Part shown: positions 34,577 to 35,461 of the stretch, one piece after another | Layout of the letters: every line of letters starts with the position of its first letter | How positions within the stretch are numbered: position 1 is the stretch's first letter | IMG/VR virus record: IMGVR_UViG_3300027797_000019 | Coordinates: 1-64,000 of that record | Source: a virus | DNA: 64,000 nucleotides | Reading direction: 5' to 3' (one strand) | Position numbers and translations under genes: made by a program | Notes under the pieces: generated by a model | What the model saw: only the letters and a program-made list of their open reading frames with translations | What the model was told of the DNA's origin: nothing | Database searches by the model: none

Positions 34577-35461
34577 ATGTACCCTAACGATTATTGTCAA
34601 CCTTGTCAACAAACAGTACCTCCGGTTACTGTACCACCTCCTCCAGTATGTGCTGGGGAGCCGTGTGTTGAGTTATATAAAGATGATTGTGTTCTTTATA
34701 CAGGACCCAATTTTCCATGCTTAAATGTTACAACAAATGAGCGTCTTGAAAGCGTTTTGATTAAAATCATGACAAAACTTTCTCAGTGCTGTTGTGATGG
34801 TACACCTCAACCTGTTGACTGTGTTGTATCAGAATGGAGTGCTTGGGGTGAATGCATTTGTCCAGATGAAGGCGCCGAAATAGAAATATGTACTCAAACA
34901 AGAACTAGAACAGTTATTACACCAGCATCTAATGGAGGCGATCCTTGTCCTTTACTTATTGAAATAAGAGAATGCTGCCAACCAGTAAACTGTGTAGTAT
35001 CTCAATGGAGCGAATGGTCTAACTGCGTTAATGGCATTCAAACAAGAACAAGAACAGTAGTTACTCCCGCCTCTTGTGGTGGTACTGCTTGTCCTCCACT
35101 AGTAGAGACAAGGTCATGTTGTACTCCTGTAAACTGTGTTGTATCAGCATGGGGTCCTTGGTCAAATTGTGTTAGCGGAGTTAGAACTAGAACAAGAACT
35201 GTTGTTACACCAGCATCATGTGGTGGAACAGCTTGTCCTGCACTTACAGAAACTCAAGATTGTGATGGGGGTTTACCTGTAGATTGCGTAGTTTCAGATT
35301 GGAGTCCTTGGTCTAATTGTGTTAACGGTGAGCAGACAAGAACTAGAACTGTTGTAACACCTGCTGAAAACGGTGGAGCACCATGTCCAACTTTGATAGA
35401 AACAAGAGACTGTATAGGATGTACAACACCAACAGGTCTTTCAGTACAAACTTTAGCTTAA
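34577..35461 (+). CDS. fibre protein with four thrombospondin type-1 (spondin-type) repeats
   Basis: Four copies of PV[DN]CVVSxWxxWxxC...TRTRTV[VI]TPAxxGGxxCPxLxExxxC, plus an N-terminal CVLYTGPNFPC anchor shared with the 32812 gene. Confidence 0.9.
   Translation: MYPNDYCQPCQQTVPPVTVPPPPVCAGEPCVELYKDDCVLYTGPNFPCLNVTTNERLESVLIKIMTKLSQCCCDGTPQPVDCVVSEWSAWGECICPDEGAEIEICTQTRTRTVITPASNGGDPCPLLIEIRECCQPVNCVVSQWSEWSNCVNGIQTRTRTVVTPASCGGTACPPLVETRSCCTPVNCVVSAWGPWSNCVSGVRTRTRTVVTPASCGGTACPALTETQDCDGGLPVDCVVSDWSPWSNCVNGEQTRTRTVVTPAENGGAPCPTLIETRDCIGCTTPTGLSVQTLA
34811..35413 (+). repeat. four tandem TSP1-coding repeats
   Basis: Units start at 34811, 34982, 35126 and 35276 (spacings 171, 144 and 150 bp). 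Confidence 0.9.

What the first reader, a model, noticed from the sequence alone, without database searches (positions are those of the whole stretch)
34577..35461. Eukaryote-type thrombospondin-1 (spondin) repeats on a bacteriophage fibre
Seen: four complete TSRs with the WxxWxxC strand, the RxRxR ladder and the spondin-type C-x-V-S-x-W ... GGxxCPxLxExxxC pattern. They are fused to a phage fibre anchor and written in phage-like codons, so contamination is unlikely. Known: TSRs are disulfide-bonded extracellular adhesion modules of animals and protists that bind sulfated glycans and are rare in prokaryotes. Inference: a horizontally acquired adhesin for host capsule, algal polysaccharide or mucus. 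How its disulfides form for a cytoplasm-assembled virion is an open question.
Basis: partly seen in the sequence, partly recalled or inferred. Interest (0 to 1): 0.8.

Follow-up and report, generated by a model that had tools for sequence, protein, structure and literature searches.

The report
Thrombospondin repeats in phage fibre protein
An uncultured crAss-like phage really does carry four thrombospondin type-1 repeats, a fold best known from animal adhesion proteins, in a cysteine-packed virion fibre protein; they are a stripped-down four-cysteine form shared by many uncultured phages and most likely act as a stiff stalk rather than a one-off adhesin borrowed from animals.

Summary
Observation confirmed. 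ORF 34577-35461 (294 aa, 10.9% Cys) matches Pfam TSP1_spondin at E 1.3e-43 with four repeats. An AlphaFold2 model (repeats pLDDT >90) matches properdin, thrombospondin-1 and complement TSRs.

The record is a 97-kb crAss-like phage. At least nine independent viral contigs carry TSR genes in the same genomic slot, and codon use matches the neighbours, so this is not contamination or a chimera.

The repeats are a short form with four core cysteines. The hairpin Cys and its partner are missing. An extra Cys pair at repeat junctions co-varies perfectly (27 both, 40 neither, 0 discordant).

The slot gene always keeps an N-terminal ~75-aa Cys-rich module, but its TSR count runs from 0 to 6. Most versions, the 92-aa minimal one included, also end in a short FN3-like strand, and those are always followed by a gene starting at FN3 strand B.

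Best reading: a disulfide-stapled stalk in the base subunit of a multi-protein fibre. A glycan-binding role is not excluded.

Direct import from eukaryotes is not needed, because TSRs occur in bacteria of many phyla, including a short-form repeat in a Flavobacterium surface protein. No GenBank phage and no paper I found has this. This scan has already reported phage TSRs in at least 17 other genomes, including a related crAss-like phage.

The parts
34577..34816 (+). N-terminal Cys-rich module (about 75-80 aa), the putative virion-docking anchor
   Evidence: An exhaustive HMMER search found 97 representative clusters at E<=1e-3. Apart from a few long multi-stretch matches that I set aside, the module sits at the N-terminus, and the payloads vary. 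The next-door 580-aa protein shares it (BLASTP 6e-6). In the L079 group it is joined to a C-terminal region matching tail-fibre PHROGs. AF2 gives a hairpin plus helix 57-70 at pLDDT 70-89; residues 1-30 are poorly modelled.
34820..34981 (+). TSR 1, with a 9-residue hairpin insert carrying two extra Cys
   Evidence: PF19028 at 42.3 bits; sequence.
34991..35122 (+). TSR 2, short four-Cys form, stapled to repeat 1 by a junction Cys pair
   Evidence: PF19028 at 44.9 bits; junction Cys covariation.
35135..35266 (+). TSR 3, short form, stapled to repeat 2
   Evidence: PF19028 at 45.9 bits.
35285..35416 (+). TSR 4, short form, with no staple at the 3-to-4 junction
   Evidence: PF19028 at 52.2 bits.
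35417..35461 (+). C-terminal tail (C-T-T-P-T-G-L-S-V-Q-T-L-A) plus the TAA stop; a lone FN3 strand-A-like segment
   Evidence: The tail motif is conserved in relatives. All 9 loci with it are followed by a gene starting at FN3 strand B; all 6 without it are not. In a read-through fusion model the tail fills strand A of a complete FN3.
35486..36028 (+). Second fibre subunit (180 aa): an FN3-like domain lacking strand A, a second beta-sandwich, and its own donor tail
   Evidence: AF2 at pLDDT >90. VIA-align matches two tandem FN3 domains (6xax_A Z 12.4, model 49-230).
36047..36553 (+). Third subunit (168 aa): starts at FN3 strand B, has a C-terminal Cys-containing domain and no donor tail; the candidate distal tip
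   Evidence: Sequence. It is 95% identical in the close relative L037, against 76% for the TSR protein.
32812..34554 (+). Neighbouring 580-aa fibre-like protein with the same N-terminal module, heptad-like segments and an fn3 domain
   Evidence: Pfam fn3 at 4.4e-08; N-terminal similarity; conserved in syntenic loci.
31849..32439 (+). 196-aa Cys-rich protein kept directly upstream of genes that carry the N-terminal module, even in distant phages; a candidate docking partner
   Evidence: tblastn gives 26-30% identity at the adjacent position in 27 of L076-L103 and in L106, and 62-94% in the close clade.

Best explanation
Gene 34577-35461 encodes the base subunit of a cysteine-rich, multi-protein fibre on the virion of an uncultured crAss-like phage. 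Its N-terminal ~75-aa module docks the protein on the particle, and the neighbouring 580-aa fibre protein uses the same module. Four short-form thrombospondin type-1 repeats then form a thin rod. Each repeat is held by two internal disulfides. Two of the three junctions carry an extra disulfide that ties the linker to the next repeat and stiffens the rod. The last ~12 residues are a lone FN3 A-strand. It probably completes the FN3 fold of the next gene's product, which passes a similar strand to the third protein at the tip.

Shown here: TSR identity and predicted fold, the reduced Cys pattern, the co-varying junction Cys pair, the shared N-terminal module, the variable-length slot, and the co-occurrence of donor tail and acceptor gene.

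Inferred: docking site (tail more likely than head), rod function, strand donation between separate chains, and disulfide formation on or after release into oxidising water. A weak glycan-binding role of the TSRs may exist alongside the structural one.
For: TSR identity: Pfam E 1.3e-43 in four stretches. AF2 mean pLDDT 83 with repeats above 90. Foldseek top hits are properdin, thrombospondin-1 TSRs (1lsl) and C6/C8/C9 TSRs, with single repeats at rmsd 1.3-1.6 A over about 50 residues.

Phage context: terminase, portal and MCP PHROGs; portal related to crAss-like phages; the record is an IMG/VR virus of 97 kb.

Stalk: in about 27 syntenic loci the same slot holds genes from 92 aa (N-terminal module plus tail only) to about 990 aa, with 0 to 6 TSRs. 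The close relative L037 has flanks 91-97% identical but a different middle, 3 TSRs plus other domains.

Staple: the extra Cys right after the last core Cys of repeat n and the extra Cys five residues before the third core Cys of repeat n+1 co-occur in 27 junctions, are both absent in 40, and are never discordant. After thinning to under 70% identity the counts are 5, 19 and 0. Six proteins hold both kinds of junction.

Anchor.

Donor strand: 9 of 9 against 0 of 6 co-occurrence, with different frames and stop codons. In the fused model, residues 46-147 align to whole FN3 domains (7jgu_A Z 12.0, rmsd 2.0 A, 90 residues).

Disulfides are plausible: the fibre cluster is 3-11% Cys against a genome mean of 0.79% and 0-0.1% in portal, MCP and the ORF between them, and PhiCrAss001 has mapped virion disulfides.
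Against: There are no virion data, so presence on the particle, its location (tail or head) and its oligomeric state are all inferred.

The TSR protein and the second subunit are the fastest-changing genes of the module (76% identity in the close relative L037, against 95% for the supposed tip protein). That pattern is usually seen in the part that meets the host and could favour a binding role for the TSRs.

TSRs also hang on tail-tube proteins and on a 2230-aa virion protein in other phages, where a pure spacer role is less obvious.

The strand-A placement comes from an artificial single-chain fusion, and the tail has pLDDT of only about 57.

The junction Cys statistics come from related proteins. 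I could not read Cys-Cys distances in the model.
Confidence: 0.55

Rival explanations
1. The TSR array is itself the adhesin. It would bind host capsule, algal polysaccharide, mucus or another sulfated or acidic glycan through the Trp-Arg face, as eukaryotic TSRs do, and would set host range or particle retention.
For: The TSR protein changes fastest among close relatives, 76% against 91-97% for the flanks. TSRs also occur as terminal or near-terminal additions on tail-tube proteins (PF06199) and next to a beta-helix tailspike-like domain in other phages, like the Ig-like decoration domains. Eukaryotic TSRs are known glycosaminoglycan binders (general knowledge).
Against: Relatives in the same slot work with zero TSRs (92- and 110-aa forms) or swap them for FN3-like domains. 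The Trp and Arg residues are the fold's own core ladder, so their conservation says nothing about ligands. A further two proteins appear to be attached distal to the TSRs.
Confidence: 0.25
2. It is a capsid (head) fibre or decoration protein, like PhiCrAss001 gp21 and gp29. The N-terminal module would sit in hexon pockets and the TSRs would project from the head for loose adherence to surfaces.
For: PhiCrAss001 head fibres bind through short N-terminal segments (residues 1-38 and 1-58) and carry small C-terminal binding domains. The gene lies downstream of the MCP in the head-proximal part of the structural block.
Against: No sequence similarity to any GenBank phage protein, PhiCrAss001 included. 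The same N-terminal module is joined to regions matching tail-fibre and tail-protein PHROGs (phrog_8469, phrog_8763, phrog_5616) in other phages.
Confidence: 0.15
3. It is an artefact: eukaryotic or giant-virus DNA joined to a phage contig by mis-assembly, or contamination.
For: TSRs are overwhelmingly eukaryotic. Some IMG/VR 'viral' contigs with canonical TSRs plus chitin-binding or ephrin-receptor-like domains (L043, L051) may be of that kind.
Against: The same gene sits in the same slot in independent viral contigs of 24-124 kb from other samples. A near-identical protein was seen on another 36-kb contig. GC3 and synonymous codon use match the neighbours. There are no composition breaks. 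The N-terminal module and C-terminal tail are phage-specific.
Confidence: 0.02

Closest known systems
Spondin-type thrombospondin type-1 repeats (Pfam TSP1_spondin PF19028, TSP_1 PF00090), e.g. properdin, thrombospondin-1 TSR2-3 (PDB 1LSL) and the complement C6-C9 TSRs
   Same: HMM match far above the cut-off. It has the Cys before the WxxW strand, the Trp-Arg ladder and the GGxxCP turn. The predicted three-stranded fold superposes on solved TSRs. Tandem arrays form rods, as in properdin.
   Different: Only four conserved Cys. The CSxxCGxG hairpin, which holds the O-fucosylation site, and its partner Cys are gone. An optional new Cys pair bridges repeat junctions. There is no signal peptide. 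The protein is made in a bacterial cytoplasm as part of a virion.
Bacterial TSR-bearing surface proteins (Myxococcales, Phycisphaerales, Schleiferiaceae, Owenweeksia, Flavobacterium cheongpyeongense)
   Same: They show that TSRs exist outside eukaryotes, including in Bacteroidota, the usual host phylum of crAss-like phages. The single Flavobacterium repeat has the phage short form and groups with the phage repeats in a unit tree.
   Different: All but one or two of the roughly 80 bacterial repeats examined keep the canonical hairpin Cys. They sit in secreted giant proteins with signal peptides, and the three Bacteroidota examples I read carry LRR, lectin-like or peptidase modules, not in virion genes.
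Accessory Ig-like, FN3 and BACON domains on phage structural proteins (Ig-like domains on tailed phages; the 'adherence to mucus' idea), from my own knowledge of that literature
   Same: A small extracellular-type beta domain is added in variable copy number to virion proteins. In other uncultured phages TSRs sit on tail-tube proteins and on a large virion protein, exactly like Ig-like domains.
   Different: The fold is different, and it depends on disulfides. Here the domain lies in the middle of a fibre subunit between an anchor and a donor strand, not at a free end.
PhiCrAss001 fibres (head fibres gp21 and gp29, tail fibre gp22) and its disulfide-stabilised tail (PMC10172136)
   Same: A crAss-like virion with several fibre proteins that dock through short N-terminal segments, and with experimentally mapped disulfides in the particle.
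   Different: No detectable sequence similarity. PhiCrAss001 fibres carry no TSRs. The Cys density here (10.9%) is far higher.

Membership tests
Thrombospondin type-1 repeat (TSP1_spondin PF19028 / TSP_1 PF00090) | Profile HMM score above the curated gathering threshold | tested here: met
   147.5 bits against 41 (PF19028) and 55.2 against 21.6 (PF00090); four separate stretches, each above the cut-off.
Thrombospondin type-1 repeat (TSP1_spondin PF19028 / TSP_1 PF00090) | WxxW tryptophan strand and Arg ladder on strand B (the Cys-Trp-Arg layered core) | tested here: met
   All four repeats have W-x-x-W and T-R-T-R-T. Repeat 3 has a full RxRxR.
Thrombospondin type-1 repeat (TSP1_spondin PF19028 / TSP_1 PF00090) | Elongated three-stranded TSR fold | tested here: met
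   A prediction only. AF2 pLDDT is above 90 over the repeats. Foldseek probability is 1.00 to properdin, 1lsl and C6/C8/C9 TSRs, with rmsd 1.3-1.6 A over about 50 residues for single repeats.
Thrombospondin type-1 repeat (TSP1_spondin PF19028 / TSP_1 PF00090) | Six conserved cysteines forming three disulfides, including the CSxxCGxG hairpin Cys | tested here: not met
   Four conserved Cys per repeat. The hairpin Cys and its partner are absent in repeats 2-4. Repeat 1 has an unrelated two-Cys insert. This is a reduced variant, so I file it as a variant of the family, not a canonical member.
Thrombospondin type-1 repeat (TSP1_spondin PF19028 / TSP_1 PF00090) | Disulfides actually formed; extracellular location | not testable with these tools
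   Needs non-reducing mass spectrometry or a structure of virions. There is no signal peptide by eye in the N-terminal sequence, and the protein would reach the outside only at lysis.
Phage tail fibre / receptor-binding protein | Sequence or profile similarity to a described fibre family | tested here: inconclusive
   No PHROG hit for this protein and no tblastn hit in 50,697 GenBank phages. However, other proteins with the same N-terminal module match tail-fibre PHROGs in their C-terminal parts.
Phage tail fibre / receptor-binding protein | Presence in the virion and position on the tail | not testable with these tools
   No cultured relative, proteome or map is available.
Donor-strand-complemented fibres (as in chaperone-usher pili) | Acceptor subunit with an incomplete Ig-like or FN3 fold, and a donor strand on the neighbouring subunit | tested here: inconclusive
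   Tail motif and acceptor gene co-occur 9 of 9 against 0 of 6. In an artificial read-through fusion the tail is modelled as FN3 strand A (model 46-147 against complete FN3 domains, Z about 12). The tail pLDDT is about 57, and no two-chain prediction could be run.

The most novel reading that the evidence does not exclude
Phages of this clade build a pilus-like heteropolymeric fibre. The base subunit would be a disulfide-stapled thrombospondin-repeat rod of adjustable length (0-6 repeats), and successive gene products would be joined by donating the missing A-strand of a split FN3 domain. That assembly principle (strand donation plus oxidative locking) has not, to my knowledge, been described for any phage fibre. 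It would also mean that the short four-Cys TSR is a phage-adapted structural module that has spread to several unrelated virion proteins.
Probability: 0.4. Interest if true: 0.8.

Novelty: new variant of a known kind. Interest (0 to 1): 0.55.

Why it matters
TSRs are textbook animal and parasite adhesion modules that need disulfides and, in eukaryotes, ER glycosylation. Here a trimmed four-Cys version serves as a recurrent building block of phage virion proteins. I found it in at least four architectures:
- the crAss-like fibre slot;
- tail-tube proteins;
- a 2230-aa virion protein;
- a beta-helix protein.

This widens the known toolkit of phage surface domains beyond Ig-like, FN3 and BACON folds.

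It also offers a compact, naturally minimised TSR scaffold for structural and binding studies. It gives a clear test case for how heavily disulfide-bonded parts (32 Cys in 294 residues) mature on particles assembled in a reducing cytoplasm.

Finally, it weakens the habit of reading any prokaryotic or viral TSR as a recent import from eukaryotes.

None of the 50,697 GenBank phage records has it, so it is so far a feature of uncultured, probably aquatic, phages.

Tried and rejected
1. Stop-codon read-through or recoding joining the three same-frame ORFs (34577, 35486, 36047). Rejected: the stops are TAA-ACA-TAA and TAA plus a second TAA four codons later. In relatives the downstream gene is in other frames and follows TAA or TAG. 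The odd tRNA at 16982-17057 was not pursued as a suppressor.

2. A phage-encoded thiol oxidase or oxidoreductase. Erv1/ALR (PF04777), thioredoxin (PF00085) and DsbA (PF01323) all give no match in the 97-kb record, which is estimated 81% complete.

3. GenBank phages. No tblastn hit for the TSR protein, for ORF 31849 or for ORF 30590.

4. Literature. Four searches on thrombospondin or TSP1 with phage, crAss or prokaryote terms gave nothing relevant; 'TSP1' in phage papers means tailspike protein. The library is not complete.

Context came from IMG/VR and GTDB scans instead.

6. Repeat-unit tree (FastTree, 232 units of about 45 columns). Resolution is low and the short/canonical state changes 19 times. 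I use only the grouping of most crAss-family units with the Flavobacterium unit (support 91), and only as a hint.

7. ESM Atlas on the N-terminal module. It returned only viral hypothetical clusters at score 0.86, which is a lead at best.

8. PDB sequence search. The only hit was complement C8 alpha, at E 3.8e-05.

9. Host identification was not achieved.

10. Cys-Cys distances could not be read, because model coordinates are not exposed.

Full report
**What is there**

The finding's coordinates are exactly one ORF, from ATG 34577 to TAA 35459-35461, encoding 294 aa.
- Pfam gives TSP1_spondin (PF19028) at E 1.3e-43 and 147.5 bits against a cut-off of 41, in four stretches. TSP_1 (PF00090) scores E 8.1e-15.
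- A six-frame family scan of the whole record places the repeats at 34820-34981, 34991-35122, 35135-35266 and 35285-35416, each above the cut-off.
- Every repeat reads C-V-V-S-x-W-x-x-W-x-x-C ... T-R-T-R-T ... G-G-x-x-C-P-x-L-x-E-x-x-x-C.
- An AlphaFold2 model built on 29 family sequences has mean pLDDT 83, with the repeats above 90.
- Foldseek against the PDB returns properdin, thrombospondin-1 TSRs (1lsl, 3r6b, 7yyk) and the complement C6/C8/C9 TSRs at probability 1.00. Single repeats superpose at rmsd 1.3-1.6 A over about 50 residues.

**It is a phage gene, not contamination**

The window is the first 64 kb of a 97,023-base IMG/VR virus record, linear and estimated 81% complete.
- It encodes a terminase (phrog_6681), a portal (phrog_6547) and a major head protein (phrog_11589), followed by giant virion proteins of up to 3650 aa.
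- The portal's best GenBank match is Leptolyngbya phage Lbo-JY46 at 32.7% identity. The rest are crAss-like phages of Bacteroides, Flavobacterium and Cellulophaga at 22-26%.
- The TSR gene has GC3 of 0.173 and a synonymous-codon score inside the range of the other phage genes.
- Its four DNA repeats are only about 70% identical, so the duplications are old.
- A near-identical protein was seen on another 36-kb contig.
- About 27 IMG/VR loci share the gene order ORF 30590, 31849, 32579, 32812, slot gene, exonuclease-like gene, 38110. At least nine of them carry short-form TSRs in the slot gene.

A chimera is effectively excluded.

**A reduced TSR**

Canonical spondin-type repeats have six Cys. 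Here only four are conserved:
- Ca, before the Trp strand;
- Cb, after the Trp strand;
- Cc, in GGxxCP;
- Cd, at the end of the repeat.

The CSxxCGxG hairpin Cys and the final Cys are missing together. The hairpin is also the eukaryotic O-fucosylation site, from my own knowledge. By analogy with group-2 TSRs, this implies the pairs Ca-Cc and Cb-Cd; that assignment is inference.

Among the 120 best database relatives, this short form marks the phage-type proteins. The bacterial and named eukaryotic hits, apart from one Phytophthora repeat, keep the hairpin Cys.

Some junctions carry two further Cys. One comes directly after Cd of repeat n, giving 'CC'. The other lies five residues before Cc of repeat n+1, in 'P-A-S-C-G-G'.
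- In 67 adjacent short-form pairs from 46 proteins, these two are both present 27 times, both absent 40 times and never discordant.
- After thinning to under 70% identity the count is 5, 19 and 0, and six proteins contain both kinds of junction.
- In the window protein, junctions 1-to-2 and 2-to-3 have the pair and junction 3-to-4 does not.

I read this as a disulfide that ties the linker to the top loop of the next repeat and so stiffens the rod. I could not read distances in the model to check it.

**The gene's architecture and its slot**

Residues 1-80 form a Cys-rich module.
- An exhaustive HMMER search of 1.84 billion representatives finds it in 97 clusters at E<=1e-3. Apart from a few long multi-stretch matches (P0136, P0149, P0154, P0203), which I left out of the follow-up set, it lies at the protein's N-terminus. 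The proteins are 66 to 1601 aa long.
- In 69 members scanned, the payloads are TSR (9), fn3 (8), PKD, Fib_succ_major, DUF11, K1-lyase_C, LRR and others. Some match tail-fibre PHROGs.
- A large IMG/VR group (L076-L103) joins part of the module to a C-terminal region matching phrog_8469 'tail fiber protein' and phrog_8763 'tail protein'.
- The neighbouring 580-aa protein (32812-34554; fn3, heptad-like segments) carries the same module (BLASTP E 6e-6).
- A 196-aa Cys-rich protein (31849-32439) stays directly upstream of module-bearing genes even in distant phages.

No virion data exist to confirm either.

In the syntenic relatives the slot gene always keeps the N-terminal module, but its middle differs:
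- nothing at all in the 92-aa forms (L066-69) and 110-aa forms (L059-63);
- one to six TSRs;
- TSRs mixed with FN3-like and other domains.

Nine of the fifteen family loci examined, the minimal forms included, also end in a short tail of the type C-P-x-P-T-x-L-x-A; the other six lack it.

The closest relative, L037, has flanking genes 91-97% identical, but its slot gene is 560 aa with three TSRs plus other domains. A module that can be absent, multiplied or swapped between a fixed anchor and the rest of the fibre behaves like a spacer or stalk.

**The C-terminal tail**

The last residues look like FN3 strand A. The next two genes (35486-36028 and 36047-36553) begin at what looks like strand B (T-L-x-W-T-P). 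Another first-stage note, e1-6007229, made the same point, and I tested it in part.
- Read-through is excluded. There are double TAA stops here, and relatives use different frames and stop codons.
- In relatives, the tail motif and a downstream strand-B-start gene co-occur in 9 of 9 loci. All 6 loci without the motif go straight to the exonuclease-like gene.
- An AF2 model of the read-through translation (TAA read as Gly, P0207) has mean pLDDT 82. VIA-align matches model residues 46-147 to complete single FN3 domains (7jgu_A Z 12.0, rmsd 2.0 A over 90 residues; 6x39_A Z 12.2). It matches residues 49-230 to tandem FN3 pairs (6xax_A Z 12.4).
- Residue 46 of that model lies in the TSR protein's tail, so the tail is modelled as strand A.

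Two caveats apply. The chain is artificially fused, and the tail's pLDDT is about 57.

**Where the disulfides come from**

- The TSR protein is 10.9% Cys (32 residues).
- The cluster 31849-36553 is 3-4.6% Cys.
- The genome mean is 0.79%.
- The portal, the MCP and the ORF between them (25353-26594) have 0-0.1%.

No Erv1/ALR, thioredoxin or DsbA homologue is detectable in the record. The PhiCrAss001 virion has experimentally mapped disulfides in its tail and portal-vertex proteins (PMC10172136). Disulfide-bonded crAss-like particles are therefore established, and oxidation at or after lysis is the simplest route. That last step is inference.

**Origin**

A pattern scan of one genome per 185,579 prokaryotic species found 31 TSR loci. 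They came from Myxococcales, Phycisphaerales, Binatia, Acidimicrobiales, Thermodesulfovibrionia, Schleiferiaceae, Owenweeksia, Chitinophagales and others.
- Those I read are giant secreted surface proteins.
- Nearly all keep the canonical hairpin Cys.
- The clear exception is one short-form repeat in a 1322-aa LRR surface protein of the isolate Flavobacterium cheongpyeongense.
- In a low-resolution unit tree, that repeat falls inside the clade holding 39 of 42 crAss-family repeats (support 91).

TSRs are therefore rare but widespread in bacteria, and exchange between phages and Bacteroidota is plausible. A direct eukaryote-to-phage transfer is not needed. The direction of transfer is unresolved.

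**Other phage contexts**

Short-form TSRs also occur in other settings:
- on tail-tube proteins (PF06199, weak but consistent hits; P0048, P0110);
- at the C-terminal end of a 2230-aa virion structural protein (phrog_14478, E 3.6e-274; eight repeats; L046);
- next to a beta-helix domain (L070);
- next to an fn3 domain (L074).

Some 'viral' contigs with canonical TSRs plus chitin-binding or ephrin-receptor-like modules (L043, L051) are probably eukaryotic viruses or mis-binned DNA.

No GenBank phage has a TSR by tblastn, and I found no paper on the subject.

This scan, however, has already reported phage TSRs in at least 17 genomes. Two follow-ups on a related crAss-like phage of about 124 kb reached the same 'four-cysteine, stiff stalk' reading. 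I reached mine before reading them.

**Verdict**

The best-supported mechanism is a disulfide-stapled TSR stalk of variable length in the base subunit of a multi-protein fibre (confidence about 0.55). The main rival is direct glycan binding by the TSRs (about 0.25). Supporting that rival, this protein and the next one are the fastest-changing genes of the module between close relatives, while the supposed tip protein is 95% conserved.

I class it as a new variant of a known kind. It has moderate interest in itself and higher interest if the strand-donation fibre is confirmed.

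Noticed in passing
window 35420-36553: FN3 domains appear split across gene boundaries. Two successive proteins end in a lone strand-A-like tail, and the next gene starts at strand B. Tail and acceptor gene co-occur 9 of 9 against 0 of 6 in relatives, and a fused AF2 model puts the tail in strand A. This is also the subject of another first-stage note (e1-6007229).
   Followed up: partly
window 31849-32439: A 196-aa protein ending in a Cys cluster stays directly upstream of genes with the N-terminal module, both in the close clade (62-94% identity) and in distant phages (26-30%). 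It may be the docking partner or hub. It has no Pfam, PHROG or GenBank phage match.
   Followed up: partly
whole record (G000); window 22495-28262 and 40847-64000: Cysteine is nearly absent from the portal (1 in 905), the MCP (0 in 540), the ORF between them at 25353-26594 (0 in 413) and most of the giant virion proteins from 45481 onward (0-0.3%; ORF 40847-45481 has 1.1%). The fibre cluster has 3-11%. Cys use is sharply partitioned within the virion genes.
   Followed up: no
window 16982-17057: ARAGORN calls a tRNA with an undetermined two-base anticodon 'ct'. It sits next to tRNA-Thr (16602-16676), and tRNA-Arg(tct) lies at 13266-13340. I checked only that the fibre genes do not need a suppressor.
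   Followed up: no
window 17942-18250: A small ORF of 102 aa with 8 Cys (7.8%) lies just before the exonuclease and terminase block. Its function is unknown.
   Followed up: no
L046:1717-8409 (IMGVR_UViG_3300048527_000005): A 2230-aa virion structural protein (phrog_14478, E 3.6e-274 over residues 10-1460) carries eight short-form TSRs in its C-terminal third. This is a different phage lineage using the same module.
   Followed up: partly
L024:4521-8489 (Flavobacterium cheongpyeongense IMCC34759): A 1322-aa LRR surface protein of a cultured Flavobacterium carries one short-form, phage-like TSR near its C-terminus. It was the only bacterial genome locus found with this form, and it may hint at the host group or at exchange between phage and host.
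   Followed up: partly
L043:5551-7989 and L051:5743-7317 (IMG/VR contigs): These 'viral' contigs encode proteins with up to ten canonical six-Cys TSRs plus chitin-binding, ephrin-receptor-like or cEGF modules. They look like eukaryotic-virus or eukaryotic sequences rather than phage.
   Followed up: no
window 30183-30563: A 126-aa protein matching phrog_858 ('starvation-inducible transcriptional regulator', E 3.7e-26) sits in the middle of the structural gene block and is conserved in the close relative L005.
   Followed up: no
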